From assembly GCA_965278995.1 (NCBI GenBank), contig OZ257136.1, forward strand, positions 1,777,458 through 1,841,457: 64,000 nt of DNA. Direction: 5' to 3'. The notes beneath the pieces are model-generated. The model was not told the origin of the DNA and ran no database searches. It saw nothing but the letters and a program-made list of their open reading frames with translations. A program made the position numbers and the translations under genes. Shown here one piece after another: positions 19,524-42,087 of this stretch. Positions within the stretch are counted from its first letter, which is position 1; each line of letters opens with the position of its first letter. This DNA is from Gammaproteobacteria bacterium (lineage in GTDB: Bacteria > Pseudomonadota > Gammaproteobacteria > Ga0077536).

Positions 19524-19898
19524 TCAGCGACTACCGGATGTTGCGGTCGGACTCGTCGTGCAGGGGTAGGCCGCCTGCAGTATCTGCGTGACGAGTACCG
19601 GCGCTGGGAGATTGGCCGCATCGGTGCGGACAGTCAGCGCATCAACCACGACCCGGGCAAGCGTAGCGTGCTCGATATCGGCGGGCGGGCAGGCCGTCGG
19701 CGGCGCCGGCTCGGCACCACAGACCGGGCATGGCACCACATACCAATCGCAGATGCCGGCCTCGAAGCCGGTATAGCCGGCAACCAACGCACGCTTGCAG
19801 GTCCGAACAAGCTCTGCACCGGTAGCTGCTGCGCAAGCCTCGGCACCGGCCATCAGCAAGGTCACGAACAGCATGCAGCACCACCGCCAGCGATTCAT
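19524..19898 (-). CDS. Exported Cys-rich protein, Rap1a/Tai4-like (periplasmic immunity-protein fold)
   Basis: It has an ATG start and a signal peptide. The pattern C-x12-GY-x7-C...CPP-x-I-x4-L-x2-VV...AAYPC resembles the Rap1a/Tai4 domain. This is recognition by eye only. Confidence 0.5.
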   Translation of the reverse strand: MNRWRWCCMLFVTLLMAGAEACAAATGAELVRTCKRALVAGYTGFEAGICDWYVVPCPVCGAEPAPPTACPPADIEHATLARVVVDALTVRTDAANLPAPVLVTQILQAAYPCTTSPTATSGSR

Positions 19899-22455: not shown

Positions 22456-23637
22456 ATGCAGCGATCAGTCAATGTCATCGGTGTCGGTATGACAGCGTTC
22501 AAGACGCCGAAACATGCCGAACCTTATACCGTCATGGGCGGCGCAGCCGGGCGCCTGGCTCTGACCGATGCCGGCGTCGACTATCGAGATATCGAACAGG
22601 CCTATGTCGGCTACGTCTACGGCGATAGCACCGCCGGCCAGCGTGTGATCTACGACATCGGTATGTCCGGTATTCCGGTCTTCAACGTCAACAACAACTG
22701 CGCGACGGGTTCCAGCGCGCTCTTTCTCGCCCGTCAGGCGGTCGAATCCGGCATGGTCGAATGCGCGCTGGCGCTCGGCTTCGAAACGATGAGCCCGGGC
22801 GCACTCGGCTACATCTTCCCGGACCGGCCCGCACCGCTCGAGAAATTTACCGACGTCGCGAAACGGAAATACGGCGACAGCCAGGTGCCGATGGCGCCGC
22901 TGCTGTTCGGCGGCGCCGGGCGCGAGTACATGGAGAAGTACGGCGCCAAAGCGGAGACATTCGCGCGTATCACGGTCAAAGCACGTCGCCACGCGCAGCA
23001 CAATCCGAATGCCGTATTCCGTGAGCTGCTATCGCTCGAAGAAGTCATGGCAAGCGCAAGCGTGTGCGATCCGGTTACACGGTTCCAGTGCTGCCCGCCG
23101 ACCTGCGGCGCTGCTGCCGCAGTGCTATGTTCCGACGATTTCGTGCGTCGTCATGGCCTCAAAACGCAGGTGCGTATCGCGGCCCAGGCAATGACCACCG
23201 ATACCGCTTCGACCTTCGGCGACAGTCTTATCAGCACGGTCGGTTATGACATGTCGCGCGCCGCAGCGCTCAAGGTCTACGAGGATGCCGGCATTGGTCC
23301 GGAAGACGTCAAGGTCATCGAACTGCACGATTGCTTCAGCACCAACGAAGTGCTGAATTACGAAGCGCTCGGGCTGACAGCGCCGGGCACGGCCGAGCGC
23401 ATGATCGAAGACGGCGACAATACCTACGGCGGCAAGTATGTCGTCAATCCGTCTGGTGGATTGATCTCGAAAGGCCATCCGCTGGGCGCCACCGGGCTGG
23501 CACAGTGCGCGGAGTTGACCTGGCAGTTGCGCGATCAGGCGGGCGCGCGACAGGTCGACGGTGCAATGATTGCACTCCAACACAATATCGGTCTCGGCGG
23601 CTGCTGTGTGGTGACGCTCTACGAGCGTGTCGCCTGA
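22456..23637 (+). CDS. SCP2-type thiolase / lipid-transfer protein
   Basis: ATG 22456 follows GGAG. Motifs VIGVGMTAFK, NVNNNCATGSSAL (active-site Cys) and GHPLGATG fit this family. Confidence 0.88.
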   Translation: MQRSVNVIGVGMTAFKTPKHAEPYTVMGGAAGRLALTDAGVDYRDIEQAYVGYVYGDSTAGQRVIYDIGMSGIPVFNVNNNCATGSSALFLARQAVESGMVECALALGFETMSPGALGYIFPDRPAPLEKFTDVAKRKYGDSQVPMAPLLFGGAGREYMEKYGAKAETFARITVKARRHAQHNPNAVFRELLSLEEVMASASVCDPVTRFQCCPPTCGAAAAVLCSDDFVRRHGLKTQVRIAAQAMTTDTASTFGDSLISTVGYDMSRAAALKVYEDAGIGPEDVKVIELHDCFSTNEVLNYEALGLTAPGTAERMIEDGDNTYGGKYVVNPSGGLISKGHPLGATGLAQCAELTWQLRDQAGARQVDGAMIALQHNIGLGGCCVVTLYERVA

Positions 23638-24157
23638 GTCGGTGTTGCGTAACGATACCGTGGGGCGAGTCGCGGCAACCTGGGGAATGGCCGGGTTCAG
23701 TGCCCTGTTGTTGTTCGCGATCGTGCGTTTGACGGTTATCGCACGCGCCGGATTCGAACTGCCGTGGCAGCCGTTGCACTGGGTCGCGCTGGCGTTGAGC
23801 GTCACCGGTATGGCTTATTTCGAGGGTTACCGTGCTTTTCAGCGCTCCTATGCACCGCGGTTCGCCGCGCGTGCCGCCGTCCTGCTGCGCGAACCGACGG
23901 TTGTCCGTCTGGCACTGGCGCCTTTGTTCTGCATGAGTTTTTTTGATGCACCCCGCCGCCGCGTCATTGCTGCCGCCGTGCTGACCTCGGGCATCGTTGC
24001 GCTGATACTCACCATTCGTACGCTGCCACAGCCGTGGCGGGGGATCATTGACGCCGGGGTCGTCACAGGGCTGGTGTGGGGCCTGGTCGTAACCCTGTTC
24101 GCGGTCGGTCGCGTGCTGGCCGGCCAGCGGCCGGCAGTGGACCCGGACATCGCCTGA
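23627..24157 (+). CDS. Uncharacterised 4-TM membrane protein, paralogue 1
   Basis: The GTG start overlaps the end of the thiolase gene by 11 nt. I estimate roughly 45-50% identity by eye to the product of 31714-32262, with shared motifs MAYxEGYRxFQ, APRRR and LPQPWRGIxDAGV. Confidence 0.7.
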   Translation: MSPESVLRNDTVGRVAATWGMAGFSALLLFAIVRLTVIARAGFELPWQPLHWVALALSVTGMAYFEGYRAFQRSYAPRFAARAAVLLREPTVVRLALAPLFCMSFFDAPRRRVIAAAVLTSGIVALILTIRTLPQPWRGIIDAGVVTGLVWGLVVTLFAVGRVLAGQRPAVDPDIA

Positions 24158-24229
24158 TCGGTGCAGTCCGCTGCGCTGGCCGCGCATCGGTCGGGCGTTA
24201 TCAGTTTATGCCTGACGGGTTTTGATATT

Positions 24230-24248
24230 ATTAATGATAATCGTTATC
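24230..24248. promoter_or_regulatory. Fur box
   Basis: ATTAATGATAATCGTTATC matches 16/19 positions of GATAATGATAATCATTATC. It lies in an AT-rich island about 35 nt upstream of ATG 24281. Confidence 0.8.
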
Positions 24249-24280
24249 ATTATTATTCATTACCTAGTTGGAGCATTCCC

Positions 24281-24943
24281 ATGCGTACTCTGATCTCGAG
24301 CCTGCTCGCCATTCTCCCCACGCTCGCTGCACCGCTGGCCGTCGCCGACGTCGTCGGTGTTCAACTTCCGCTGGATTGGACCCGCGGCGATTCTGGCACT
24401 GCCTTCGCCGAGTTCGATAGTTTTGCCGGTTTTGTCGGTGGTATCGGTCAGGTCGCAGCGACGGCACAGGCGGGTTTCACCTCTGCACAGCTGGCGCAAA
24501 GCGGCAGCATCGTCACGCCCGGCGGTGTGACCGCCGGTGGCGACCGACTCTACGTGCATAGCTATAGCAGCAGCTGGTCGCTGACCGGCACGGTCGGCTT
24601 CGACATCACGCGCGCCATCCTGCAGGTCAAAGAAAGCACGGGCTCGGGTACGCTCGCTTATACGGCGACCCTGGCTGGCTTCGCGCCGTCCAGCGTATCG
24701 GTGTACTCCGATGGCGGCAGTACCCCGGATTCCATCACCCGCTATGTGTGGGATTTGAGCAGCATCGGAGCTGTCCTCACCAATCCGGCCATCAACCTGA
24801 GCGGCCCGGGCTTCACGTTTATCTCGTTTGACTCGTTCAGTCTGGATCTGGCCAGCGCCGCACCGGTACCGCTGCCTGCAGCTGCCTGGCTGCTCGGCGG
24901 AGGTCTCGCAGTCCTGAACGCGCGACGCCGTCGTAGCGCCTGA
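24281..24943 (+). CDS. Exported protein with VPLPA-CTERM-type sorting signal (family member A)
   Basis: ATG 24281 follows TTGGAG. The signal peptide is ...APLAVA/DV and the C-terminus is APVPLPAAAWLLGGGLAVLNARRRRSA. It shares blocks DWTRGxxG...AEFDxF and others with the genes at 27402 and 39112. Confidence 0.8.
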   Translation: MRTLISSLLAILPTLAAPLAVADVVGVQLPLDWTRGDSGTAFAEFDSFAGFVGGIGQVAATAQAGFTSAQLAQSGSIVTPGGVTAGGDRLYVHSYSSSWSLTGTVGFDITRAILQVKESTGSGTLAYTATLAGFAPSSVSVYSDGGSTPDSITRYVWDLSSIGAVLTNPAINLSGPGFTFISFDSFSLDLASAAPVPLPAAAWLLGGGLAVLNARRRRSA

Positions 24944-25026
24944 CAGCGCGCGCCAGCGGCCAGCGCTCCGAGCCCATCACACGCAATGGGCTTGGTTTGC
25001 GGAAGGCATGCTGTCGCGAAATCCTG

Positions 25027-27414
25027 ATGCTTGCGAGTTCCAACCGTCCGCCTGCCGCCGCGGCATGGCTGGCTGTGCTGTGGGTCGTCCTGTCCCCGGC
25101 GCATGCCGCGGATGAAATCGTCATCACCGGTCAACGCGAACGACCGCTCGTCATCGATCTCGAGCCGACGGCCTCTGCCTCGCGAGTCGACCTGGCGGCA
25201 TTGAAACGCGCTCAGGCCGGCGACGTGTTCGATGCCGTCCGCGATATGCCCGGCGTCAGCATCGAAGGCGGTCCGCGCACCAGCGGTAAGTCGTTCAGCA
25301 TCCGCGGTTTCTCCAGCAACGAAGATGTGATGGTCCAGATCGACGGCGTCACGCAAAATTTCGAGAAATATCGCTACGGTTCAGGCGTCGACATCGATCC
25401 CGAACTGCTCAAGACGATCACTGTATATCGCGGTGGTGCGGCGACCACACAGGGCTCAGGTTATATCGGCGGCGTCGTGCAGATGGAGACCAAGGACGCC
25501 TCGGATATGCTGGAACCCGACGAACGTTACGGCTTTCAAGCCAAGGCTGGCTACCAGACCAATAACGATGGCGCGCTGTATTCGGCGACCGGTTATGGCC
25601 GGCCGCTCGATTTCCTCGAGACCCTGTTCAATGTCACCAAGCGCCATACCAATGAATTCGAACTGCCTGACGGCACCCGTTTCCAGGACTCGGCCGAAGG
25701 GCAACTGAGCGGACTCGGCAAGCTGGTCCTGCGCACCGACGAAATTCGCGTGTCCGCCGTACAGCGCTATGGTGAAGACAGTGGTCTCGAACCTTTCGAT
25801 ATCACCGGCGGCGTGAGCGGGGTCGGCGGCAATGTCCGTCGTAGTACGACTGAAAAAGCCACGTCGCTTCGCCTGCAGTGGGATCCGGCTAGCACGCTGC
25901 TCAATATCGATAGCACGCTCGGCTTCATCGACAAAAACGTCACGGACGAAGGCAGCGCTATTGCTGGCGTCGATGCCGATGGACAACCTATAGGTACTGA
26001 TTTCTTCGACTATCAGATCTGGACCCTGAACACCGGTAATACCTGGGCCTTCGACATTTTCGGTGTGCATCAGATCCTGCAGACCGGCGTACAGGGCAAT
26101 CGCGAGCGCCGCGAGGCGGTGCGGCAGAATCTGCAAGGCATCGGATTTAATCCGTCACAGCCCTCGGGCGAGAAAGAGTCTCACGCAATTTATGCCGAGC
26201 ACACGGTGGAATGGCACGGTGCGCGTGCGACCGGCGGCATACGCCGCGATTGGATCACGGTAGCGCCGGGTCACGACACGCGCGCCCTGCTGACCGCCCG
26301 TGGGCTGGACGAAACGATTGGCTTCGCGCGCAATTCGCCGAGCTTCGGCTTGAATTACGGCTATGCACCGCTCGATGTGTTTTATCGCTGGAGCAAAACT
26401 TTCCGCGCACCGCTGCTCGATGAATACTTCGCGCGCGGAACGTTCAGTTCCTGTTTCGAATTCTCGGCCTTTACGCGCAACCCTGTACCACCCAGTCTGA
26501 ATCTGCCGCAGGCGCCGGTATCTCCGGACATCAACGACTTCGCCGATATTTTCGCCTATCTCGCTGCGCTTACACAGTACAACTCAGTCGATCTGCCGGC
26601 TTATCTCGCCGCGCTCACCACCACAATCGATAATTTCAATGTTGCTTTCTCCGCTTACCAGACTGCGCAGGCGGCATTTCTGAATGACCCGGCTGGCGAA
26701 CACAATGCGTTCTGTGGGGAGGCTTACGAGCCCGAGCGGGCAATTACGCGCGAGGCCGGCTTCGCACTCACGTTTGCCGATGTGCTGGCTGCCGACGACA
26801 GCCTGCTGCTCAAGTTGACCTATTACGACATCCGCGTCAGCAAGCTGCTGGAATCGATCTATGAGAATGCAATCACCCATGAGATCAGTCAGCCGGGCAA
26901 CGAAGTGCGCAAAGGCTTCGAAGTCGAACTGCATTACGCCGAAGAACGCTGGTTCGCCGATTTTGCCCTGACCACGCTGGGCGGTTACTTCCAGTACAAC
27001 TTCTTCGCCGACAACATCGACGCGAGCGTAGCCGCACTCGGCAACCCCGGCACCACGCCACTGTTCAATCAGCCGGCCAACAGTTTGAGTTTTACTTTCG
27101 GCGTACGTCCGGGCTGGAATGTCGAACTGGGCCACCGGCTGCGTGCGATAGACACCCGAGCAGTCACAGTCGGCATCATTCCGAATTGCCCCGGTGGTCT
27201 GTTCACCAATCCGGTGTGCAACATCATCGGCCGGCAGAGCGGCTACATCACCTCGAATTTCTTCGCTGCGTGGCAGCCTGCGCCGGCACTCGATCTGCGT
27301 CTGACGATCGATAACGCTCTGAACAAGCAATTTGAACTGGCGGGTTTCGGCGGGGCGCTCGGTGCCACGGCACCCGGCCGCGATGTCCGGTTGAGCGTCA
27401 GCTATCGATTCTGA
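25027..27414 (+). CDS. TonB-dependent receptor, heme/hemoglobin-receptor-like
   Basis: It has a signal peptide, a TonB-box-like DEIVITG, a plug region (FSIRGF, VQIDGV, ITVYRGG), TKDASDML, a FRAP motif and a terminal aromatic residue (SVSYRF). It is adjacent to hutZ-hmuTUV. Confidence 0.88.
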   Translation: MLASSNRPPAAAAWLAVLWVVLSPAHAADEIVITGQRERPLVIDLEPTASASRVDLAALKRAQAGDVFDAVRDMPGVSIEGGPRTSGKSFSIRGFSSNEDVMVQIDGVTQNFEKYRYGSGVDIDPELLKTITVYRGGAATTQGSGYIGGVVQMETKDASDMLEPDERYGFQAKAGYQTNNDGALYSATGYGRPLDFLETLFNVTKRHTNEFELPDGTRFQDSAEGQLSGLGKLVLRTDEIRVSAVQRYGEDSGLEPFDITGGVSGVGGNVRRSTTEKATSLRLQWDPASTLLNIDSTLGFIDKNVTDEGSAIAGVDADGQPIGTDFFDYQIWTLNTGNTWAFDIFGVHQILQTGVQGNRERREAVRQNLQGIGFNPSQPSGEKESHAIYAEHTVEWHGARATGGIRRDWITVAPGHDTRALLTARGLDETIGFARNSPSFGLNYGYAPLDVFYRWSKTFRAPLLDEYFARGTFSSCFEFSAFTRNPVPPSLNLPQAPVSPDINDFADIFAYLAALTQYNSVDLPAYLAALTTTIDNFNVAFSAYQTAQAAFLNDPAGEHNAFCGEAYEPERAITREAGFALTFADVLAADDSLLLKLTYYDIRVSKLLESIYENAITHEISQPGNEVRKGFEVELHYAEERWFADFALTTLGGYFQYNFFADNIDASVAALGNPGTTPLFNQPANSLSFTFGVRPGWNVELGHRLRAIDTRAVTVGIIPNCPGGLFTNPVCNIIGRQSGYITSNFFAAWQPAPALDLRLTIDNALNKQFELAGFGGALGATAPGRDVRLSVSYRF

Positions 27415-28244
27415 GCGGGCTCGCGCCCGGACGATGAGACGAACCAGGCACGGCGCGCCTGTCGTTCGAGGGCGCGGCGACCCGACAATGCCATCAGCGC
27501 CGCACCGAGCATCAGCATCGGTGCCGGCAGCGGTATCGGCGTGGTCGGCGGCGGCTCCACCGGCGGAACGACAATGGTTGCTGGCCCGATATCGACTGCA
27601 ACTGCTTCCAGACTGAGACTGGTCGACACGGCAGCGAAATCGAACGTGTAGACCGAGGATGCGGCATTCAGATGCCACAGATAGAGATATTCATTGTCGA
27701 CGCCGGTACCTTCCCCGCCTGGACCCGAGGCGGAACCCTCATGCAGTACGATCTTTGAACTGAACGTCTGGCCGAGCAGTTTGACCGACGTGTCATCCAG
27801 GTCCGAACCAAGTACGGCCACCTGCAGCGCGACCGTAATCGGGTGTGTACCGAGCGCGGTATGCGCAGCAGTCGGCTGCACGATCAGATCGAAATCGAGG
27901 ATGTCGGAAAAACTATAGATATTGGCACTGCCGGTGATGAACGCGGCCGGTGCCGCAGTCGACCCTTTTTTTTTGGTGAGCAGAATCGCGCCGTTAGTGA
28001 GAGTCCCGAAATTACCCTTGTCGGGCGTGGTATCGGGCAGCACCGGAGCGGTACCTAAAGGCGGTGGATTGCCGAACGCGTCGTAGTGCACATACACACT
28101 GCCGGCGGTGCCCCGATTCCAATCGCCCCACGCCGCCGGACCCGGATCTTGAAAGGCGACAGTCACAGCCAGCGCCGTTACGGGTAGGCCCAAAGCGCCG
28201 ACCGTTGCGCCCAGGAAAGCGCCAGTAGTAGTCCGTCGTGACAT
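27402..28244 (-). CDS. Exported protein with VPLPA-CTERM-like signal (family member B)
   Basis: ATG 28244 follows GAGG; the ORF-track start is a TTG inside the Fur-like box. It has an RR-containing signal peptide and the C-terminus TPIPLPAPMLMLGAALMALSGRR. It is paralogous to members A and C (DWNRGTAG...YDAFG, GSANIYSFS, AVDIGPA). Confidence 0.78.
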   Translation of the reverse strand: MSRRTTTGAFLGATVGALGLPVTALAVTVAFQDPGPAAWGDWNRGTAGSVYVHYDAFGNPPPLGTAPVLPDTTPDKGNFGTLTNGAILLTKKKGSTAAPAAFITGSANIYSFSDILDFDLIVQPTAAHTALGTHPITVALQVAVLGSDLDDTSVKLLGQTFSSKIVLHEGSASGPGGEGTGVDNEYLYLWHLNAASSVYTFDFAAVSTSLSLEAVAVDIGPATIVVPPVEPPPTTPIPLPAPMLMLGAALMALSGRRALERQARRAWFVSSSGREPAQNR

Positions 28245-28278
28245 GCCCGCAGCCTCGGTTGTTCTATGCAAGCTCTAT

Positions 28279-28297
28279 AATAATACGAATCGTTCTC
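28279..28297. promoter_or_regulatory. Fur-box-like operator in a divergent promoter region
   Basis: AATAATACGAATCGTTCTC matches 13/19 of the Fur consensus. The flanks (AATCGTTxTCA...TATTATTATT) resemble the 24230 box region. It lies between member B (-) and hutZ (+). Confidence 0.5.
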
Positions 28298-28384
28298 ACT
28301 ACTAGTATTATTATTGAAGGGAATTTACCATACGCGCAACCGCGCTGGCGGACAGAACCATCGATTTTCAGCAGGAGTAATGGC

Positions 28385-28903
28385 ATGAGTGCGCTTCCGG
28401 CAGATCTGGACACGGTAGGTCACGAGGCACGCACGTTTCGCGATCGCTTCCTGACCTTGCAACTGGCCACCTGCTCGAACGACGGTGTACCGACAGCCAG
28501 CTATGCGCCTTATGCGCTCAGCGCGGCGGATACGTTCTACATCTACGTAAGCGAACTTGCTGCGCACACGCCCAATCTGCACGCTGGCCGCCCGCTCAGC
28601 GCGCTGTTCATCGAATCGGAAGCAGACGCCGAACACGTCTTTGCGCGCAGACGGCTGACCTGCCGTTGTGAAGTCGAATCGCTGCCGCGAGGGGATGACC
28701 GCTTCGATGCCGCACTCGACGCGCTGCGTGAACGTTTCGGCCCGTTCATGGATCATTTGCGGACATTCCAGGACTTCCATGCGTTTGCCTTGATTCCGCG
28801 CCACGCGATTTACGTGCGCGGCTTTGCGCAGGCGTATGAACTGCCGGATGCGGATTTCAATGCCATCCGCCATCAGAACGAACAAGGCCATCGCAATGCG
28901 TGA
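28385..28903 (+). CDS. hutZ: Heme utilisation / heme-degrading protein HutZ (PNPOx-like fold)
   Basis: ATG 28385 follows AGGAG. Blocks TLQLATCSNDGVPTASYAPY, FARRRLT, RFGPFMDHLRTFQDFHAF, YVRGFAQAYEL and NEQGHRNA parallel Vibrio HutZ. Confidence 0.85.
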   Translation: MSALPADLDTVGHEARTFRDRFLTLQLATCSNDGVPTASYAPYALSAADTFYIYVSELAAHTPNLHAGRPLSALFIESEADAEHVFARRRLTCRCEVESLPRGDDRFDAALDALRERFGPFMDHLRTFQDFHAFALIPRHAIYVRGFAQAYELPDADFNAIRHQNEQGHRNA

Positions 28904-29756
28904 GCGCGCGTGCTCGATAATGTTCGCCGTCGTGTTGCCGGCTCTGGTTTGCGTTCTGTCGACGCCGGCCATCGCTGCCGAGCGCATCGTCTCCATTGGC
29001 GGTTCTGTCACCGAGATTCTGTTTGCGCTCGGCGCAGGCGATCAGCTCGTTGCGGTGGATGCCACCAGCATTTACCCACCTGCAGCGGATGCGCTTCCCG
29101 ACGTCGGCTATCTACGTGCGCTGGCGCCGGAACCGATACTCGCGCTGAAGCCCGATCTGGTGCTGTGCGAAGCCGACGCCGGTCCACCGGAAACGCTCGC
29201 GCAGCTGCACGCTGCCGGCACCGCCACGGTCATGATCCCGGATGAACCCAGCGCTGCTGGCGTCGCGGCAAAAATCCGCGCTGTCGCTGAAACAATCGGG
29301 CGTAGCGCGGCCGGGGAAGAACTCGTTGCCTCGCTCGAGCGCGATCTGAGTGCAACTGCCGCAAGTATCCCGCGCGTCGACGGCAAGCAACCGCGGGTGC
29401 TGTTCGTGCTTCAGTTCGATGAAGGCTCCGTGATGGCCGCCGGGCGCGGGACATCGGCTGATGCGATCATCACACTGGCTGGCGGAATCAATGCTGCCGC
29501 GGCGTTCAACGGTTATAAAGCGATGAACGGTGAAGCGCTGCTGGCGACTGCCCCGGACTACATTTTGACCATGGAGCGCGCCATCGCCGGGCTGGGCTCA
29601 CACGATGCTGTGCTCGCGCTGCCGGCGGTCAGACTGACACCAGCCGCCAAAGCGGGCCGCCTGGTTGTCATGGACGGCTTGTTGCTGCTTGGCTTTGGTC
29701 CGCGCCTCGGTCTTGCCACGCGACAGCTTGCTGACGCTATTTACGCTACTGACTGA
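28896..29756 (+). CDS. hmuT: Hemin ABC transporter periplasmic binding protein
   Basis: ATG 28896 overlaps the end of hutZ. It has a signal peptide and the motif ERIVSIGGSVTEILFALGAGDQLVAVD. Confidence 0.88.
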   Translation: MRERACSIMFAVVLPALVCVLSTPAIAAERIVSIGGSVTEILFALGAGDQLVAVDATSIYPPAADALPDVGYLRALAPEPILALKPDLVLCEADAGPPETLAQLHAAGTATVMIPDEPSAAGVAAKIRAVAETIGRSAAGEELVASLERDLSATAASIPRVDGKQPRVLFVLQFDEGSVMAAGRGTSADAIITLAGGINAAAAFNGYKAMNGEALLATAPDYILTMERAIAGLGSHDAVLALPAVRLTPAAKAGRLVVMDGLLLLGFGPRLGLATRQLADAIYATD

Positions 29757-29778
29757 AACACGCCCGGTACACAGTGGC

Positions 29779-30834
29779 GTGATCACGCACGAACTGTTCT
29801 CGCCACGCGCGCGTGTCATCTCCGCCTGCCTGACAACCACCGTAGTCGCTGCACTGATCAATCTGGCGTGGGGACCTGTCGCCGTTCCACTGGCCGATGT
29901 GATCGCGATTCTGAGTTCCGGAAGCAGCGCGTCTGGCACCCTTTCAGCGAGTGTAGTGCTCGATCTGCGCGGCCCGCGCGTCCTACTGGGCGCATTGGTC
30001 GGCGCGACTCTGGCGGTCGCCGGCGCCGCATTTCAAGGATTGTTTCGCAATCCGCTCGCCGATCCCAGTCTGCTCGGCATCTCGGCCGGCGCTGCCACCG
30101 GCGCAGTCGCGTTTATCGTCCTCGGGCGCGCGCTTGTGCCCGTAGAATTGGGATCAACCAACTGGTCAATTTATGGACTGCCGATAGCCGCCAGCCTTGG
30201 CGCAGTACTGGCGGCTGCCCTGCTCTATCTGCTCGGGCGGCGAGCGGGTGCGCTGGATGTCGCGACCTTGCTGCTGTCAGGAATTGCCATCAACGCGTTG
30301 TGCTCGGCGCTATCGGGGCTATTGATTTTTACCAGCGATGAGCAGGAGCTCCGTGAGCTCACGTTCTGGTCACTCGGTTCCTTGTCGCGCGCGCATTGGT
30401 CGACTCTACTTCCAGCACTACCGCTGCTGGTGGCCGCCATGAGTGGCTTGTTTGCCTTGGCTGGCGCAGTTAACGCTCTCGCTCTCGGAGAGGCAGCCGC
30501 CGCACATCTCGGTTTTCGAGTCGAACGCCTGAAAGGTGTGCTCGTTCTCGCCACCGCTGTCGCCGTCGGTACAGCGGTGGCACTGACCGGCGTGATTGCG
30601 TTCATTGGTTTGATCGTTCCGCATGCAGTCCGAAGTCTCATCGGAGCCGACAATCGCTATGTATTCGCCGCCTGCGCTGGTGCTGGTGCTACGCTGATGC
30701 TGCTCGCCGATCTCCTTGCGCGCAGCGTTGCCATGCCGGCGGAGATGCCGATAGGCATTTTGACCAGTTTGCTCGGCGGCCCGTTTTTTCTGTGGTTGAT
30801 GCTGTATCGGCGCAGCGTCCTGGCGATGCCATGA
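29779..30834 (+). CDS. hmuU: Hemin ABC transporter permease (FecCD family)
   Basis: The sequence is FecCD-like with multiple TM segments. The start is uncertain; I chose the first in-frame GTG after the hmuT stop. The ORF-track ATG 29665 would overlap hmuT by 92 nt. Confidence 0.82.
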   Translation: MITHELFSPRARVISACLTTTVVAALINLAWGPVAVPLADVIAILSSGSSASGTLSASVVLDLRGPRVLLGALVGATLAVAGAAFQGLFRNPLADPSLLGISAGAATGAVAFIVLGRALVPVELGSTNWSIYGLPIAASLGAVLAAALLYLLGRRAGALDVATLLLSGIAINALCSALSGLLIFTSDEQELRELTFWSLGSLSRAHWSTLLPALPLLVAAMSGLFALAGAVNALALGEAAAAHLGFRVERLKGVLVLATAVAVGTAVALTGVIAFIGLIVPHAVRSLIGADNRYVFAACAGAGATLMLLADLLARSVAMPAEMPIGILTSLLGGPFFLWLMLYRRSVLAMP

Positions 30835-31643
30835 TAACGACCACGGCCGTCACCTATCGCGTCGGTCATCGAGCCTTGGTCGACGACTGCACCGTGGATT
30901 TCGCAAGCGGCGGTGTGACCGTCGTACTCGGACCGAATGGTGCCGGTAAATCGACCTTATTGCGGCTGCTTGCCGGCGACCTGTCGGCAACCGCCGGCGG
31001 TATTGCGCTGGCCGGTCGCCCACTCAGCGAATGGCCGCTGGCTGCGATCGCCAGGTTCCGCGCTGTCGTCACCCAGTTCAACCAGATTGCCTTTCCCTTC
31101 ACCGTCGCCGAAGTTGTCGCACTCGGCCGACTGCCCCATCGTGCTCAAACAACGGCTGCAGCGGACGCCGCTGCGGTAAGCAACGCCCTGCATTGCATGG
31201 GAGTCGCGGAACTGGCCGCACGCAGCTACCCGACACTGTCCGGCGGTGAACAACAACGGGTTGCCATTGCGCGTGCACTGGCGCAGCTGGATGTGCGCAA
31301 TATCGCTGCCGGGCAAACGCGCTATTTCCTGCTCGATGAACCGACGGCCAGCCTCGATCTGGCTCATCAGCACACCCTCATGCGTCAGCTGCAGGAAATC
31401 GCGCGCGCGGGCTGCGCGGTGATCGCGGTTCTGCATGACATCAATCTCGCGCTCACCTACGCCGACAAGGTGGTAGTGATGGACAACGGTCGTATCGTGG
31501 CGGCGGGCATTACGGCCGAAACGTTGACTGTCGAGTGCATCGAGCGCGTATTTCGAGTGGCGACCCGACGCGTTACGACCGGCCCCGGCTGCGAAACCCT
31601 AATTTTCGGTGGCGCTGTCTGCGCTCCGCCGAGACTGTCATGA
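30831..31643 (+). CDS. hmuV: Hemin ABC transporter ATP-binding protein
   Basis: It is ATGA-coupled to hmuU. It has Walker A GPNGAGKST, the signature LSGGEQQR and Walker B YFLLDEP. Confidence 0.9.
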   Translation: MITTTAVTYRVGHRALVDDCTVDFASGGVTVVLGPNGAGKSTLLRLLAGDLSATAGGIALAGRPLSEWPLAAIARFRAVVTQFNQIAFPFTVAEVVALGRLPHRAQTTAAADAAAVSNALHCMGVAELAARSYPTLSGGEQQRVAIARALAQLDVRNIAAGQTRYFLLDEPTASLDLAHQHTLMRQLQEIARAGCAVIAVLHDINLALTYADKVVVMDNGRIVAAGITAETLTVECIERVFRVATRRVTTGPGCETLIFGGAVCAPPRLS

Positions 31644-31713
31644 ACATCGTGCGTGCTAACATCCACCGCACTACTCGGAATAATCAGCCTTTTCTCCATT
31701 GTGGATTGTATCG

Positions 31714-32262
31714 ATGACCATGTCAGGCCCGTCGGTGTTCGACTTCACACCACGAACGACCGTCATCCGGACCGTCGCCGCGAGTTGGGGCGCAGGCGGC
31801 TTCATTGCGATATTGATCCTCGCGCTGCAGAAGCTTACTCCCGTCGCGCTGGATGCCCTGCGCCACGAACTGACGACGACGCACTGGCTGGTGCTGGTCT
31901 CGAACAGCATATTCATGGCGTACAGCGAAGGTTATCGGGGATTCCAGTGCGCTTATTCGCCGCGACTCGCGGCACGCGCACTGTGGCTGTATCGCCATGC
32001 CGACTGGCGGCAATGTCTGGTGGCGCCGCTGTTGTGCATGGGTTTCTTGCAGGCGCCGCGGCGACGCATGATCAGTGCGTGGGTCCTGACCGCGATGATC
32101 ACCGTGCTCGTGATCGTCTTTCGAAGTCTGCCGCAACCGTGGCGCGGGATCCTCGACGCTGGCGTTATCGTCGGGCTGGGCTGGGGCCTGCTGGCGACAT
32201 TGGCAGCGTGCGTGCAGGCGATGCTCAAACCAGGCTCAACGGTCGATCCTGAAGTCTGCTGA
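31714..32262 (+). CDS. Uncharacterised 4-TM membrane protein, paralogue 2
   Basis: I chose ATG 31714; the ORF track starts at a TTG at 31699. It is paralogous to 23627-24157 and follows hmuV after about 70 nt. Confidence 0.7.
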   Translation: MTMSGPSVFDFTPRTTVIRTVAASWGAGGFIAILILALQKLTPVALDALRHELTTTHWLVLVSNSIFMAYSEGYRGFQCAYSPRLAARALWLYRHADWRQCLVAPLLCMGFLQAPRRRMISAWVLTAMITVLVIVFRSLPQPWRGILDAGVIVGLGWGLLATLAACVQAMLKPGSTVDPEVC

Positions 32263-32334
32263 GACCCGCTCAGGCACGCCCAATCGGCAGCCCGCAGACC
32301 TGCCTATTGCGCAAAACACGGCGCGCCCTTACAT

Positions 32335-32530
32335 TCGCTAGTCTACGTACAGGTGCCGTCGACTAGCGTAAGTCACGGTGAAACGAGAAGACGGTGCGCT
32401 GCCACGCAGCAATCCCGTCACTGCCCCCGCAACGGTAAGTGGGTGCGCTGCTGATACTGCCACTGTGCTTCGCACGGGAAGGCCAGCAAGCGCGCGCAAG
32501 CACCCCACGAGTCCGGAGACCGGCCTGTGC
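32335..32530 (+). promoter_or_regulatory. Cobalamin (B12) riboswitch
   Basis: The conserved blocks appear in the correct order: GGTGCC, GAGAAGACGGTGCG, AATCCCGTCACTGCCCCCGCAACGGTAAG, CACTGCCACTG...GGGAAGGCC, and the B12 box GAGTCCGGAGACCGGCC. The element lies about 40 nt upstream of the GGAGGG RBS and ATG 32570. Confidence 0.85.
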
Positions 32531-32569
32531 GCTGTTGTTTCGTCATGTCGCGGAGGGCGACTGTTGAGC

Positions 32570-34759
32570 ATGCGCACGCGCGTCCTCACTCTATTGTCTT
32601 TTTTCGTTCACCGGACCGGTAACGGGCGGCCACGCCGGCCCGTTGTCCTTGCTCTGGTTCCCGTTCTCGCCATCGTTGCTGCTTCGGTTGCGTCACCACA
32701 AATGGCGCTCGGCGCGTCGGCGCTCGAAATGGATGAGTTGATCGTAACCGGCGTTCGTGAGCAGCGCCTGTTGCTGGCGCCTCGCAGCATCGCGGTGATT
32801 ACGGCGGACGATATCGCGCGCAGCGCTTCCAGCAATCTCGTCGACTTGCTGGCGAAGGAAGCGAACGTCAATCTGCGCAGTTTTTTCGGCAACGACAAAT
32901 TCGCCGGTGTCGATATCCGCGGCATGGGCGATACCTTTTCGAGCAACGTCCTTGTGCTGATCGACGGCGTACGCATCAACGCAGTTGATTTGAGCGGTGC
33001 AGATTTTTCCAGCATTCCGCTCGACCAGATTGAGCGCGTCGAGGTCATCCGCGGCGCCAATGCCGTTCGCTACGGTAACGGCGCTGTCGGCGGTGTGATC
33101 AATATCCGCACGCGACGCCCGTTGCCGGGGACTCATGCGCAGTCGCGACTCACTGCCGGCAGCTTTGACAACCACGGCGGCGCGCTGTCGGCCAGCACCG
33201 GAATCCGCGGCCTCGAACTGGACCTGCGCAGCTCACTAAACGACAGCGACGGCTACCGTGATAACGGCCAGTTCTACAAGAAGGACGGCGCTTTCGGTCT
33301 GCGTTTTCGTGGATTGAGCTGGTTGGATGCCTATGTCCGCGCCGAACTGCATCAGGATCGTTACGGTATTGCAGGCCAGATCAGCGGTACCGCATTCAGA
33401 CGTTCATCGAAAGCCCGCCAGGCCACTGCTACACCAGACGATCATGGCGAAACCATGGATCGACGTTACCGTGCCGGGCTAAATGTCGACGGCGGACGTT
33501 TCGGTCGCTACAGCGGTCTTGCCGCTTATCGCGCTCGTACCAACCCGTACGTCATCGGCTTCACATCGTTGCTCAGCATCCGCGAACAGGAAAGCACGAT
33601 TGAATCTGTGACGCGCGACTATCAGGGGACCTACACGCTTCCACTCACGCTGCTCGGGAACAATCACGAACTGGTGTTCGGCTACGAAGATCTGAACGCC
33701 GATTACGAGCGTCGCGAAAACGGCCGCGGTTACCTCGATCGCAGCCGCAGTTTGAATGGGGCTATCCGCGATCGTTCCGGCTTCGTCAGTTCGCGCTGGT
33801 CGCTGCCACATGCGTTCGCGCTCGATCTCGGTTATCGCCGCGATCAATTCGCGGTGCGGCGGCACGAGGAACGCCTGCAGCGTGTGTGCGACACCGTATT
33901 TATCGATACGGTCGTCAACACGACCGTGTTCGTCGAAGTCGCGCCCGGTGTATTCGTCCCGATAGCCGTGCCCGTTACGGTCTCGCTGCCAGTGGAAAGC
34001 AACTGCCGCGGAGAACTCCTGGTTGCCACCGGCCAGCGCGAAACCTGGCGCAATTCAGCCTGGGAAGCCGGCCTGAGCTGGCAACCGACGAACTGGAGCA
34101 ACATTTATGTCAGCCATCACCGGAGTTTTCGCAATCCGAATGTCGATGAGCTGACGCTGGCTACCGGCGACCTGGCGCCACAACGCGGCAAGCACTGGGA
34201 AATCGGCCTTCGCATGCAACCCACCGAGCGCTTCGAAGCGGCATTGTCGTTGTTTCACATGCGCGTGGCCGACGAAATATTCTTCGGTTACGACCCGGTC
34301 ATGCGCCGCGAAGTGAACCGCAATCTCGATCAGGGGACGACCCGTATGGGCACCGAGATCGAATTGAAGTATGACTTCACGGCCGTGCTTTCCGGTTGGA
34401 CCAACCTGAGCTACATCGACGCCCGCATCGTCGGTGACGATACCTTCATTCCGCTCGTTGCACGCGACAAGATTGCCGCTGGTATCGAGTGGGAACCACT
34501 TGCTGGATTAAGTTTTTCGGCCTCGTGTACGCATGTCGGTCGTCGTTTCGACGGTAACGATTTCGATAATCGCAGTTTCGATCACCTCGACGCCTACCAT
34601 GTCGTCGACGCCAAACTACGTTGGCGTGCGCCACATTATTCTGTCGCCGCGAGTGTCAGCAATGTACTCGACGCCATCTATGCGACTGCCGGATACAGCG
34701 GCACGCTCTATCCCATGGCGCCGCGTTCATTCATGGTCGAACTCGCGTTCGACATCTGA
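32570..34759 (+). CDS. TonB-dependent receptor, BtuB-like (assigned from riboswitch context)
   Basis: I used the internal ATG 32570; the ORF-track N-terminus would run across the riboswitch. It has a TonB box DELIVTG, a plug region (IERVEVIRGANAVRYG), FRNPNVDEL and a C-terminal aromatic residue. Confidence 0.85.
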   Translation: MRTRVLTLLSFFVHRTGNGRPRRPVVLALVPVLAIVAASVASPQMALGASALEMDELIVTGVREQRLLLAPRSIAVITADDIARSASSNLVDLLAKEANVNLRSFFGNDKFAGVDIRGMGDTFSSNVLVLIDGVRINAVDLSGADFSSIPLDQIERVEVIRGANAVRYGNGAVGGVINIRTRRPLPGTHAQSRLTAGSFDNHGGALSASTGIRGLELDLRSSLNDSDGYRDNGQFYKKDGAFGLRFRGLSWLDAYVRAELHQDRYGIAGQISGTAFRRSSKARQATATPDDHGETMDRRYRAGLNVDGGRFGRYSGLAAYRARTNPYVIGFTSLLSIREQESTIESVTRDYQGTYTLPLTLLGNNHELVFGYEDLNADYERRENGRGYLDRSRSLNGAIRDRSGFVSSRWSLPHAFALDLGYRRDQFAVRRHEERLQRVCDTVFIDTVVNTTVFVEVAPGVFVPIAVPVTVSLPVESNCRGELLVATGQRETWRNSAWEAGLSWQPTNWSNIYVSHHRSFRNPNVDELTLATGDLAPQRGKHWEIGLRMQPTERFEAALSLFHMRVADEIFFGYDPVMRREVNRNLDQGTTRMGTEIELKYDFTAVLSGWTNLSYIDARIVGDDTFIPLVARDKIAAGIEWEPLAGLSFSASCTHVGRRFDGNDFDNRSFDHLDAYHVVDAKLRWRAPHYSVAASVSNVLDAIYATAGYSGTLYPMAPRSFMVELAFDI

Positions 34760-34786
34760 GCGCTATTCCTCGTACAGGTACCTGTC

Positions 34787-35677
34787 ATGCGATTACTTTT
34801 CTCCCGCAACTTTACTGCTTTTACCAGCATTCTCGCACTCGCAGCGTTGGTCATTACAGCAGCACAAGCCGGTCCTTTCGCGCCTGCTGCCGGCCAACCC
34901 GGCAGCACCGCTGTGTCCAGTAACGATGCCAGCATCACGGCCTGGGCGACCGGCTATTCCGCCTACCAGGTTGGTGCCAACGTCGATACTACCTGGCAAA
35001 CGCCGGGTCTGGCGCTGGGATCGGCCACTGGCGACAGTTTTGGCATTGTCGGTCTCGGCGACGCCGGCCGCATCACGCTCAGTTTTGCCGGTTCCATCTA
35101 CAACGGTCCGGGTTGGGATTTCGCGGTTTTCGAAAACAGCTTCAGCGACACCTTTCTCGAACTTGCTTTCGTCGAAGTCTCCTCCAATGGCACGAGCTTT
35201 TTCCGCTTTCCGAGTTTCTCGTTGACGCCAGCTGCAGTGGGCGCTTTTGGAACGATGGATCCGACCAACATCGACGGCCTTGCCGGCAAATACCGCCAGG
35301 GATTCGGAACCGCTTTCGATCTGGATATTTTTCGTACCACGCCAGGGATCGACATCAATGACATTCGATTTGTACGCATCGTCGATATCGTCGGTAACGG
35401 GTCGAGCGTCGACAACTGGCCGACCAACCTCGGCGGTCCGCATCCGATCTATGACCCTTATCCAACTATTGGCAGCGCCGGCTTCGATCTCGATGCGGTA
35501 GCCGTGCGTTATCTCGATGCCGACCCGCCGCCCGTCGATGTGTCATCGAAGCAGGTGCCGATACCAGCTACGTTCGCGCTATTACTTGCCGGTGCGCTTG
35601 GCATGGCCGGTGCGCGTCGATTGGAAAGGAAATCAATGTCTCCCGATTTCATTCACTACAACAGGAACCACCTATGA
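34787..35677 (+). CDS. Exported uncharacterised protein with VPIP-type C-terminal anchor signal
   Basis: It has an ATG start, a signal peptide and the C-terminus KQVPIPATFALLLAGALGMAGARRLERK. It is ATGA-coupled to the next gene. Confidence 0.75.
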   Translation: MRLLFSRNFTAFTSILALAALVITAAQAGPFAPAAGQPGSTAVSSNDASITAWATGYSAYQVGANVDTTWQTPGLALGSATGDSFGIVGLGDAGRITLSFAGSIYNGPGWDFAVFENSFSDTFLELAFVEVSSNGTSFFRFPSFSLTPAAVGAFGTMDPTNIDGLAGKYRQGFGTAFDLDIFRTTPGIDINDIRFVRIVDIVGNGSSVDNWPTNLGGPHPIYDPYPTIGSAGFDLDAVAVRYLDADPPPVDVSSKQVPIPATFALLLAGALGMAGARRLERKSMSPDFIHYNRNHL

Positions 35678-36531
35678 AAGCGCTCCCCTTGATCACACTC
35701 GCGGCCTGGACCGGACTGGCGGCCGTCCCGGCAGCCCATGCAGCTCTTGTCAGCTTCGAAGACGTCGTCATGCCGAACGAGCAAAGCTATTCCGGTCCTG
35801 GCGGCGGACGCTACTGGTCCGGGCTGGTGCCGCCTGCCAATGGTCAGGTCGACAGTCAGTTCGTTTCGGGCAACGCATCATTTCCGAACACGAACAACGA
35901 GTGCTGCGGTGGCGCGACATTCTGGAGCGGCTTCGCCTATTCGAATACAACGGATACAACGACTGCTGGCTTCGGCAATCAGGTCAGCGCGTTCGCTGGT
36001 GGTGGCGCCGGAGGCAGCGCGAATTATGCAATCGCTTTCGCCGGTGCATTCAACCCGCTGCGTCTGTCTTTCGACAGCCCTACGACGCTGAAACGCGCAA
36101 ATCTGACCAATACAACCTATGCCGCCTTGTCGATGCGCGATGGCGATTCTTTTGCCAAGCGTTTCGGCGGCGTCAGCGGCGATGATCCGGATTATCTGCT
36201 GTTGACGATCACCGGTAAGGACGCCAATGACGACGATACCGGAACAGTGGACTTTTATCTGGCGGATTTTCGCTTCGCCGACAACGCCGACGACTACATA
36301 CTCGACAGCTGGGCAGCAGTCGAACTGAGTACGCTGGGCGCGGTCACCGCTCTGGAGTTCACGATGACGACTACCGATGTCGGGCAGTTCGGGCCGAATA
36401 CTCCGTTCTATTTCGCTATCGACAATATCGAGCCGGTTCCACTGCCGTCCGCCGTCTGGGTATTCGCGCCCGCACTTGGCTGGCTCGCTGCTGCCGGGAA
36501 GCGACGCAAGCACGGCGTTATTGTGCGCTGA
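35674..36531 (+). CDS. DUF4465-like exported protein with VPLP-type C-terminal anchor signal
   Basis: It has a signal peptide. Blocks SFEDV, YWSG, FPNT, FWSGFAYSNTTDTTTAGFGNQ, GGSANYAIAF, NTTYAALSMRDGDSFAKRFGG, YLLLTITG, VDFYLADFR and YFAIDNIE are typical of DUF4465. The C-terminus is EPVPLPSAVWVFAPALGWLAAAGKRRK. Confidence 0.78.
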   Translation: MKALPLITLAAWTGLAAVPAAHAALVSFEDVVMPNEQSYSGPGGGRYWSGLVPPANGQVDSQFVSGNASFPNTNNECCGGATFWSGFAYSNTTDTTTAGFGNQVSAFAGGGAGGSANYAIAFAGAFNPLRLSFDSPTTLKRANLTNTTYAALSMRDGDSFAKRFGGVSGDDPDYLLLTITGKDANDDDTGTVDFYLADFRFADNADDYILDSWAAVELSTLGAVTALEFTMTTTDVGQFGPNTPFYFAIDNIEPVPLPSAVWVFAPALGWLAAAGKRRKHGVIVR

Positions 36532-39959: not shown

Positions 39960-39978
39960 CTAAATGATAATCCTTATC
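39960..39978. promoter_or_regulatory. Fur box
   Basis: CTAAATGATAATCCTTATC matches 15/19 of the consensus, with the core AATGATAATCxTTATCATT. It is AT-rich and lies about 90 nt upstream of the gene starting at 39870. Confidence 0.75.
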
Positions 39979-40059
39979 ATTAGCAATAAGTGCGTTATGT
40001 GGAATTTCGGCGGGTTGGCTGGCGCTCGCCCAAACTCACAGCGCCATGATTTCCTCTTG

Positions 40060-40699: not shown

Positions 40700-40715
40700 G
40701 CGTGAGGTAGTTGCC

Positions 40716-42083: not shown

Positions 42084-42087
42084 CGCC

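What the first reader, a model, noticed from the sequence alone, without database searches (positions are those of the whole stretch)
24224..27414. Fur-box-controlled, surface-anchor-tagged small exported protein directly upstream of a heme-type TonB receptor: a hemophore-like pair of an unrecognised family
Seen in the sequence: a 16/19 Fur box (ATTAATGATAATCGTTATC, 24230-24248) lies about 35 nt upstream of a 220-aa gene. The product has a cleavable signal peptide and the C-terminus PVPLPAAAWLLGGGLAVLNARRRRSA. A TonB-dependent receptor with heme-receptor hallmarks (TKDASDML, FRAP) starts 83 nt downstream, and hutZ-hmuTUV follows it. Established knowledge: a small exported protein followed by a TonB receptor under Fur control is the layout of hemophore systems (HasA/HasR, HmuY/HmuR, HphA/HphR). 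Inference: the mature protein shows no motif that I can tie to any of those families. It may therefore be a new ligand-capture protein that is tethered to the cell surface rather than released.
Basis: partly seen in the sequence, partly recalled or inferred. Interest (0 to 1): 0.7.

Follow-up and report, generated by a model that had tools for sequence, protein, structure and literature searches.

The report
Candidate surface-tethered heme-capture protein family
A small iron-regulated exported protein and two nearby paralogues belong to an undescribed protein family that always sits beside a distinctive heme receptor and carries a known cell-surface sorting tag; it is probably a new surface-anchored helper for heme uptake, but heme binding is untested.

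Summary
A 16/19 Fur box overlaps a sigma-70-like promoter 32 nt upstream of a 220-aa gene (P1, 24281-24943). A heme-type TonB receptor (TBDR1) starts 83 nt downstream.

Corrections:
- The C-terminal tag is the known VPLPA-CTERM (PEP-CTERM-type) sorting signal.
- A second tagged paralogue (P2, 27402-28244, minus strand) lies between the receptor and hutZ-hmuTUV.
- A third paralogue (P3, 39112-39870) has its own Fur box.

P1, P2 and P3 share a beta-jelly-roll domain. It has no Pfam, NCBIfam or PDB relative and does not resemble any known hemophore fold. A profile finds 616 clusters, carrying varied surface anchors.

In all 14 independent loci retrieved through the family, its genes adjoin a TBDR1-type receptor. 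hmuTUV and HutZ/HugZ are also present wherever the contig extends far enough. The Fur-type operator is conserved in the closest loci.

In the same window, a cobalamin riboswitch, a BtuB-like receptor and a VPLPA-tagged DUF4465 (B12-binding) protein provide an internal precedent.

Best reading: surface-tethered accessory proteins that capture heme for the receptor. Ligand binding, surface exposure and the sorting enzyme remain untested.

The parts
23627..24157 (+). 176-aa multi-pass membrane protein, paralogue of 31699-32262
   Evidence: 46% identity to the 187-aa ORF. A homologue lies upstream of the P1 homologue in L002 and at the end of the hmu operon in L019. No Pfam family.
24222..24250 (+). 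sigma-70-like promoter of P1 (TTGATA, 17-nt spacer, TATCAT)
   Evidence: 10/12 matches; 2 sites found against 0.2 expected.
24230..24254 (.). Fur box: two overlapping 19-mers, each 16/19
   Evidence: 0 expected by chance. The position is conserved in L001 and L002. Also matches the lineage variant TAATGCGAATCGTTATCAT.
24281..24943 (+). P1, 220 aa: signal peptide (residues 1-22), beta-jelly-roll domain (23-194), VPLPA-CTERM tag (196-219)
   Evidence: AF2 model pLDDT 67.6, pTM 0.64. Homologous to P2 by hhalign, 97.7% probability, E 2.4e-12, 195 columns.
24944..25026 (+). P1-TBDR1 spacer with a stable stem-loop; no promoter or canonical terminator
   Evidence: dG -41.5 kcal/mol, z -2.4. A similar stable fold occurs in L001 (z -2.9) and a weak one in L002. 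No terminator pattern.
25027..27414 (+). TBDR1, a divergent heme-type TonB-dependent receptor
   Evidence: Plug and barrel domains. Best NCBIfam hit is TonB-hemin, 239 bits, below the 317 cutoff. Closest solved structures are ShuA, a heme/hemoglobin receptor and PhuR. QNFEKYRYG plug motif, FRAP box and a Cys-bracketed insert.
27402..28244 (-). P2, 280 aa: paralogue of P1 with a VPLP-type tag, convergent with TBDR1 (13-nt overlap)
   Evidence: AF2 model pLDDT 87.1, pTM 0.73.
28277..28312 (.). conserved Fur-type operator in the divergent P2/hutZ spacer
   Evidence: The only conserved island across 5 loci. Matches the lineage Fur variant at 28281-28299.
28385..28903 (+). HutZ-like heme utilisation protein
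   Evidence: TIGR04110, 141.8 bits (below cutoff); Pfam PNPOx_N.
28896..31643 (+). hmuT (28896-29756), hmuU (to 30834), hmuV (30831-31643): heme ABC importer
   Evidence: Peripla_BP_2 for HmuT. HmuV scores 289.6 on NF010068 (heme ABC transporter ATPase), above the 261 cutoff. The permease assignment rests on NCBIfam BtuC/FecCD-type hits. The hmuU start is uncertain.
31699..32262 (+). 187-aa membrane protein, paralogue of 23627-24157, last gene after hmuV
   Evidence: The L019 homologue occupies the same position.
32334..32542 (+). cobalamin riboswitch
   Evidence: RF00174, 100.1 bits against a gathering score of 31.5.
32570..34759 (+). TBDR2, a BtuB-like receptor under the riboswitch
34787..35677 (+). 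296-aa protein with a VPLPA-like tag, unknown domain
35674..36531 (+). DUF4465 (B12-binding domain) protein with a VPLPA-type tag
   Evidence: PF14717, 176.9 bits. Function of the domain per PMC13398666. Tag.
36584..39130 (-). three tagged genes downstream of P3: a DNRLRE-like protein (38375-39130) and two zinc-metalloprotease-like proteins (37299-38384; 36584-37312, matrixin-like)
   Evidence: Orthologues of both proteases lie next to a P-family gene in L009.
39112..39870 (-). P3, 252 aa: third paralogue, with a VPVPAAAW tag
   Evidence: Orthologues (60% identity) lie near the heme locus in L004 and L008.
39960..39984 (.). Fur box about 96 nt upstream of P3
   Evidence: 16/19 match. The equivalent position in L004 carries a 15/19 box.

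Best explanation
P1, together with its paralogue P2, is an accessory protein of a heme uptake system.

Proposed mechanism:
1. Under iron limitation, Fur leaves the operator that overlaps the P1 promoter. P1 and the receptor TBDR1 are then transcribed together.
2. P2 and hutZ-hmuTUV are de-repressed from a second Fur-type operator in their shared divergent spacer.
3. P1 and P2 are exported by Sec. Their VPLPA-CTERM tag (motif, membrane helix, Arg cluster) is handled by an exosortase-type pathway, and the beta-jelly-roll domains end up displayed at the cell surface.
4. There they capture heme, or a heme-carrying molecule, and hand it to TBDR1. This receptor clade has an unusual Cys-bracketed loop that may be the docking site.
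5. Heme then passes to HmuTUV and on to HutZ.

Shown here: the gene, the tag, the Fur box and promoter geometry, the conserved synteny, the conserved operator, the lack of any known relative, and the variety of surface anchors across the superfamily.

Inferred: co-transcription, tag processing, surface display, heme binding, and docking on the receptor loop.
For: Regulation:
- A 16/19 Fur box lies between the -35 and -10 elements of a 10/12 promoter.
- Footprints show the operator is the only conserved island upstream of P1 homologues (3 loci) and in the P2/hutZ spacer (5 loci).
- The lineage-specific variant hits only these two sites in 64 kb, against 0.02 expected.

Operon:
- The gap to TBDR1 is 83 nt, with no promoter or terminator pattern.

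Synteny:
- All 14 distinct loci retrieved through P-family homology have P gene(s) beside a TBDR1-type receptor (34-75% identity).
- hmuTUV and HutZ/HugZ are present wherever the contig extends far enough.

Heme identity of the locus:
- HmuV scores above the curated heme cutoff.
- HutZ-like gene.
- TBDR1 is nearest to ShuA and PhuR among solved structures.

Extracellular domain:
- The same domain occurs with PEP-CTERM, VPLPA-CTERM, PEPxxWA, MYXO-CTERM and GC-dockerin anchors, as an autotransporter passenger, and fused to PKD/Big_9 modules.

In-window precedent:
- Cobalamin riboswitch, then a BtuB-like receptor, then a VPLPA-tagged DUF4465 protein. DUF4465 is a B12-binding domain (PMC13398666).

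Conserved candidate ligand residues across both branches (P1 numbering):
- W33, R35, Y91, Q115.
Against: - No heme-binding motif or fold is recognisable. The high-confidence P2 model (pLDDT 87) matches only generic jelly rolls (CBM6/35, Eph ligand-binding domain, TNF-like) with TM-scores of 0.43 or less. A CBM-like fold would fit glycan binding equally well.
- The superfamily is large (616 clusters), and contexts outside the heme-linked clades were not examined.
- Weak sub-threshold similarity to the floc protein PepA recurs.
- No exosortase gene is in the window, so tag processing and surface exposure are assumed.
- No His is conserved.
- TBDR1 scores below the curated heme-receptor cutoff.
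Confidence: 0.55

Rival explanations
1. P1 and P2 are receptor-associated surface proteins that take part in heme uptake without binding free heme. They might bind a heme-carrying macromolecule or particle, for example through a CBM-like glycan or protein site. They might instead act as a lid or stabiliser of TBDR1, possibly working with the tagged metalloproteases of the P3 operon that would release heme.
For: - The same synteny and regulation as the main explanation.
- A jelly-roll, CBM-like fold.
- P3 shares a Fur-controlled operon with two tagged zinc-metalloprotease-like proteins. That link recurs in L009.
- Two paralogues per locus suggest a division of labour.
Against: No direct evidence for any macromolecular ligand. 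The conserved W/R/Y/Q set fits a small aromatic, anionic ligand just as well.
Confidence: 0.2
2. P1 is a generic exosortase-sorted matrix or adhesion protein, PepA-like. It would be induced by iron limitation to promote aggregation or particle attachment, and would not be a component of the transporter.
For: - Sub-threshold hits to the floc-associated PepA model cover the C-terminal half plus the tag: P1 E 1.9e-5, and 35 of 130 superfamily members.
- PepA-type proteins are needed for floc formation (PMC9850573, PMC9012009).
- The superfamily is large and the genome encodes many tagged paralogues.
Against: - All 14 loci show tight linkage to one receptor clade, often in the same operon.
- PepA scores are far below the cutoff (24.6 against 80 bits) and partly driven by the tag.
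- No EPS genes are nearby.
Confidence: 0.12
3. The tag is not processed. P1 and P2 stay anchored in the inner membrane by the C-terminal helix, with the domain in the periplasm, and act as periplasmic heme handlers or as sensors for the uptake system.
For: - The predicted C-terminal transmembrane helix followed by an Arg cluster gives exactly this topology before any processing.
- No sortase gene could be examined.
Against: - Homologous domains occur as autotransporter passengers and with dockerin or PKD modules, which are extracellular contexts.
- HmuT already provides the periplasmic binding function.
Confidence: 0.1

Closest known systems
HmuY-HmuR (Porphyromonas gingivalis; my own knowledge of the system)
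   Same: A small all-beta exported protein is encoded directly upstream of, and probably co-transcribed with, a heme TonB receptor. It is iron-regulated and tethered to the cell surface rather than freely secreted.
   Different: No sequence or fold similarity. HmuY is a lipoprotein, whereas P1 has no lipobox Cys and carries a VPLPA-CTERM tag. Here two or three paralogues serve one receptor.
HasA-HasR and HphA/hemophilin-type hemophores
   Same: Proposed role: extracellular capture of heme and delivery to a dedicated Fur-controlled receptor.
   Different: Those proteins are released, by a type I or type 11 secretion system. No such secretion genes flank P1. The folds are different, and Pfam and Foldseek give no hit.
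BtuG/BtuH (DUF4465) with BtuB in Bacteroides (PMC13398666 and papers listed)
   Same: Surface-anchored binding proteins that scavenge a tetrapyrrole for a TonB receptor. The window itself encodes a DUF4465 protein with the same tag next to a riboswitch-controlled BtuB-like receptor.
   Different: The P domain is unrelated to DUF4465; hhalign aligns only the tag. The anchor is a lipid in Bacteroides and a VPLPA-CTERM tag here.
PEP-CTERM / exosortase cargo, including PepA of floc-forming bacteria (PMC9850573; background in 10.1101/2023.06.07.544157)
   Same: The same tripartite C-terminal sorting signal, an N-terminal signal peptide, and many cargo paralogues per genome.
   Different: Known cargo is linked to exopolysaccharide and floc formation. 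This clade is linked to heme uptake and Fur control.

Membership tests
VPLPA-CTERM / PEP-CTERM sorted proteins | C-terminal motif, hydrophobic helix and basic cluster recognised by the curated model | tested here: met
   TIGR03370, 30.0 bits against a cutoff of 25.35, residues 196-219. A transmembrane helix is predicted at 200-219.
VPLPA-CTERM / PEP-CTERM sorted proteins | N-terminal signal peptide | tested here: met
   By inspection only: MR, a hydrophobic core, then AVA|D. The feature is conserved in the homologues. No predictor was available.
VPLPA-CTERM / PEP-CTERM sorted proteins | Several cargo proteins with the same tag in one genome | tested here: met
   Eight tagged ORFs in the window.
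VPLPA-CTERM / PEP-CTERM sorted proteins | Cognate exosortase-type enzyme encoded in the genome | not testable with these tools
   None in the 64-kb window. The rest of the genome could not be reached.
HasA hemophore | HasA domain or fold, with an adjacent type I secretion exporter | tested here: not met
   No Pfam hit at E<=0.1. No Foldseek hit. No exporter genes nearby.
HmuY | HmuY domain or fold and a lipoprotein signal | tested here: not met
   No Pfam or Foldseek hit. There is no Cys at the cleavage site.
HmuY | Gene directly upstream of a heme TonB receptor and under iron control | tested here: met
   83-nt spacer, Fur box in the promoter. This is a similarity in layout only.
HphA/hemophilin (T11SS cargo) | Hemophilin-type fold and a neighbouring Slam/T11SS gene | tested here: not met
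   No fold or family hit. No such neighbour in any locus.
DUF4465 (BtuH/BtuJ B12 binders) | DUF4465 domain | tested here: not met
   hhalign of the family profile against the window's DUF4465 protein aligns only the 30-residue tag.
Heme-type TonB-dependent receptor (applies to TBDR1) | Plug and barrel domains, and a curated heme-receptor model above its cutoff | tested here: inconclusive
   Plug and barrel are present. TIGR01785 is the best hit, but at 239 bits it is below the 317 cutoff. The nearest solved structures are ShuA and PhuR.
Heme-type TonB-dependent receptor (applies to TBDR1) | FRAP and NPNL boxes with a His between them, and a His in the plug | tested here: inconclusive
   FRAP is present. 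The NPNL box is replaced by NPxA..NA.CG..Y.PE after a Cys-bracketed insert. A Tyr (in YRYG) aligns with the plug His of ShuA.
Fur regulon | Fur box overlapping the promoter | tested here: met
   16/19 match inside a 10/12 promoter. The operator is conserved in orthologous loci.
Fur regulon | Iron- and Fur-dependent expression | not testable with these tools
   This requires an experiment.

The most novel reading that the evidence does not exclude
An undescribed and widespread superfamily of jelly-roll domains (616 clusters at 50% identity), displayed through exosortase-type and other surface anchors, serves as ligand-capture partners of TonB-dependent receptors in Proteobacteria. That would make it the counterpart of the surface lipoproteins of Bacteroidota (HmuY, BtuG/BtuH, SusD). 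The P1/P2/P3 clades would be tethered hemophores that dock on a dedicated receptor clade with a Cys-bracketed loop. This would also be the first physiological role assigned to VPLPA-CTERM cargo.
Probability: 0.35. Interest if true: 0.8.

Novelty: new variant of a known kind. Interest (0 to 1): 0.68.

Why it matters
Surface or secreted binding proteins that feed TonB receptors are central to how bacteria compete for heme, iron and vitamins. The known examples come mostly from pathogens and gut Bacteroidota.

If this reading is right, it would:
- add a new fold family to that set;
- add a new way of anchoring such proteins, a PEP-CTERM-type tag;
- identify a distinct receptor clade in uncultured environmental Gammaproteobacteria;
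- connect exosortase-type sorting, so far tied to exopolysaccharide and floc formation, with nutrient uptake.

The hypothesis is directly testable with a 170-residue soluble domain.

Tried and rejected
- **Known hemophore or heme-binding families (HasA, HmuY, HphA, NEAT).** No Pfam or NCBIfam hit. No PDB sequence hit with a 32-sequence profile. No Foldseek hit with either model. Rejected as memberships.
- **Relation of the P domain to DUF4465 or the other tagged neighbours.** Similarity is confined to the tag. Rejected.
- **Strict E. coli Fur consensus in the related loci.** Few hits at 4 mismatches or fewer. Resolved by footprinting, which revealed a lineage variant.
- **Known riboswitch upstream of the tandem P genes in distant loci.** None at Rfam gathering scores. 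The conserved GC-rich motif has no convincing consensus structure.
- **HemP/HmuP identity of the small conserved ORF.** No Pfam or NCBIfam hit. The resemblance is by eye only.
- **Annotated plasmids.** No homologue of P2 or P3.
- **Metagenome scan for more P1-clade members.** Only the already known contig.
- **Organism identity.** Not recoverable.
- **One failed call.** Wrong P2 coordinates, corrected.
Full report
**1. What is there**

The 220-aa gene P1 runs from ATG 24281 to the stop at 24943, with GGAG nine bases upstream. The reported Fur box (24230-24248) matches the 19-nt consensus at 16/19, and an overlapping 16/19 match lies on the other strand. No such match occurred in 100 shuffles of the window. 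The box sits between the hexamers of a sigma-70-like promoter, TTGATA-17-TATCAT, 10/12 matches. That is the usual geometry for repression.

The receptor TBDR1 begins at ATG 25027, 83 nt after the P1 stop. The spacer has no promoter or terminator pattern. It folds into a stable stem-loop (-41.5 kcal/mol, z -2.4). A comparable fold occurs in L001, but only a weak one in L002. Co-transcription is therefore likely but inferred.

**2. The tag**

The C-terminus scores above the curated cutoff for VPLPA-CTERM (TIGR03370, 30.0 against 25.35). This is a PEP-CTERM-type sorting signal. By established knowledge, PEP-CTERM signals are cleaved by exosortases (10.1101/2023.06.07.544157). Whether this holds for the VPLPA variant, and which enzyme acts, could not be tested. 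No such gene is in the window.

**3. Paralogues and the neighbourhood**

- P2 is a second tagged protein (27402-28244, minus strand, 280 aa). It is convergent with TBDR1 and divergent from hutZ.
- P1 and P2 are not similar by BLASTP, but their family profiles align over 195 columns at 97.7% probability, E 2.4e-12.
- As a control, the family profile aligns with three other tagged proteins of the window only over the tag.
- P3 is a third paralogue (39112-39870, minus strand). It has a 16/19 Fur box about 96 nt upstream.
- P3 heads a run of three more tagged genes, two of them zinc-metalloprotease-like.
- The window has exactly eight tagged ORFs, all between 24.2 and 39.9 kb.

**4. The heme assignment of the locus**

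- HmuV passes the curated cutoff for a heme ABC transporter ATPase (289.6 against 261).
- HutZ is the best match for 28385-28903, although below its cutoff.
- The nearest solved relatives of TBDR1 are ShuA, a heme/hemoglobin receptor and PhuR.
- TBDR1 is nevertheless divergent. It scores below the TonB-hemin cutoff.
- Along with all receptors found next to P-family genes, TBDR1 has an invariant QNFEKYRYG plug motif, in which a Tyr aligns with the plug His of ShuA.
- These receptors also share an Ala/Leu-rich insert of 40-130 residues between FRAP and an NPNL-like box, bracketed by two conserved Cys.

**5. The domain is undescribed**

- Pfam and NCBIfam give nothing beyond the tag.
- A 32-sequence profile finds nothing in the PDB.
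- The P1 model is moderate (pLDDT 67.6) and the P2 model is good (pLDDT 87.1, core above 90). Both are beta sandwiches of the jelly-roll type followed by a membrane helix.
- Foldseek returns only generic jelly rolls (CBM6/35, Eph ligand-binding domain, TNF-like), with TM-scores no higher than 0.49 for P1 and 0.43 for P2. No hemophore fold appears.

**6. Distribution**

The word-based search found only two relatives of P1 and fourteen of P2, all unnamed metagenome proteins. A full profile search found 616 clusters at E<=1e-3 and 311 at E<=1e-10. Members carry PEP-CTERM, VPLPA-CTERM, PEPxxWA, MYXO-CTERM or GC-dockerin anchors. Others are autotransporter passengers or are fused to PKD/Big_9 modules. 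This choice of anchors argues that the domain works outside the cell.

Positions conserved across the whole superfamily include W33, F48, Y91, Q115, S182 and D189 in P1 numbering. R35 is additionally invariant in the 17-sequence P1+P2 alignment.

**7. Synteny**

Fourteen distinct loci were retrieved through P-family proteins, not through the receptor: L001; L002 (with L003/L016); L004 (with L005/L012); L006; L007 (with L013); L008; L009; L010; L011; L014; L015; L017; L018; L019.

- All have a TBDR1-type receptor. It lies within a few hundred bases of a P gene in 13 of them and 3.4 kb away in L010.
- All have hmuTUV and a HutZ/HugZ-type gene wherever the contig reaches that far.
- A neighbour-joining tree resolves four clades: P1, P2, a 'first-gene' clade and P3. 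Most loci carry two paralogues from different clades.

**8. Regulation is conserved**

In the GC-rich spacers of the closest loci, the only conserved island is an AT-rich operator: ATTATTAATGCGAATCGTTATCATTA upstream of the P1 homologues, and its relative in the P2/hutZ spacer. By my own alignment of its core against the E. coli Fur consensus, 13 of 16 positions match. The variant consensus hits only 24232-24250 and 28281-28299 in the window, against 0.02 expected.

**9. Internal precedent**

A cobalamin riboswitch (100 bits) precedes a BtuB-like receptor. That receptor is followed by two tagged proteins, one with the DUF4465 domain (177 bits). DUF4465 binds B12 in several species (PMC13398666). 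In this organism, then, a protein with a known ligand-binding domain that partners a TonB receptor carries this tag.

**10. Interpretation**

The best-supported reading is that P1 and P2 are surface-tethered accessory proteins that capture heme, or a heme carrier, for TBDR1. I put this at 0.55.

Rivals:
- an accessory role without direct heme binding (0.2);
- a generic PepA-like matrix protein (0.12; PMC9850573, PMC9012009);
- an inner-membrane-anchored periplasmic role (0.1).

No paper in the library links PEP-CTERM-type proteins with heme receptors or hemophores.

**11. Verdict**

The functional proposal is well supported by context but biochemically untested. I rate it a new variant of a known kind, with interest 0.68.

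Noticed in passing
window 32334-36531: A cobalamin riboswitch (100 bits), then a BtuB-like receptor, a 296-aa tagged protein of unknown domain, and a DUF4465 (B12-binding) protein carrying a VPLPA-type tag. This looks like a cobamide uptake unit whose binding protein is anchored by a sorting tag rather than a lipid.
   Followed up: yes
window 36584-39984: A Fur box (39960-39984) upstream of a minus-strand run: P3, a DNRLRE-like tagged protein, and two tagged zinc-metalloprotease-like proteins (HELGH and HELAH motifs). Orthologues of both proteases sit next to a P-family gene in L009 (1189-3911). They may release heme from proteins.
   Followed up: partly
window 23627-24157 and 31699-32262: Two paralogous small multi-pass membrane proteins (46% identity, no Pfam family). 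One lies upstream of P1 and the other after hmuV. Homologues occupy the same positions in L002 (1211-1747) and L019 (5366-5947). Their role in the heme locus is unknown.
   Followed up: partly
L007 8913-9098; also L009, L011, L013, L015, L017: In the more distant loci, a conserved small ORF (61-107 aa, ...LYDELFAHDGYGE..VEIR.LKRGQKEVILHCGKQHRFVV) lies between hmuT and the tandem P genes, preceded by a Fur-like box. It looks HemP/HmuP-like by eye but has no Pfam or NCBIfam hit.
   Followed up: partly
L009 about 9240-9275, L011, L015, L007, L013: A conserved GC-rich motif (GCAGCCTC....GGGAG.GGTGTCTTCGG) lies about 40 nt upstream of the first P gene. No Rfam family matches, and the consensus fold is weak (-4.7 kcal/mol).
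   Followed up: partly
window 25027-27414 (TBDR1), protein residues about 480-580: Every receptor found next to a P-family gene has a QNFEKYRYG plug motif, with a Tyr where ShuA has its heme-ligating His. Each also has a Cys-bracketed Ala/Leu-rich insert of 40-130 residues between FRAP and an NPNL-like box. This defines a distinct receptor subclade.
   Followed up: partly
window 27402-27414: P2 and TBDR1 converge and overlap by 13 nt. The window's P2 has an unusually long tail (about 25 residues) after the basic cluster of its tag, which its homologues lack.
   Followed up: no
window 40121-43107: A MarR/GbsR-like regulator and cytochrome bd oxidase-like genes are transcribed divergently from the P3 Fur-box region.
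   Followed up: no
window 19524-19898: A small ORF matches the Rap1a immunity protein family (type VI secretion immunity), E 1.5e-9.
   Followed up: no
protein P0023: A partial family member is deposited as a protein of the alga Phaeothamnion confervicola. This is probably bacterial sequence in an algal assembly.
   Followed up: no
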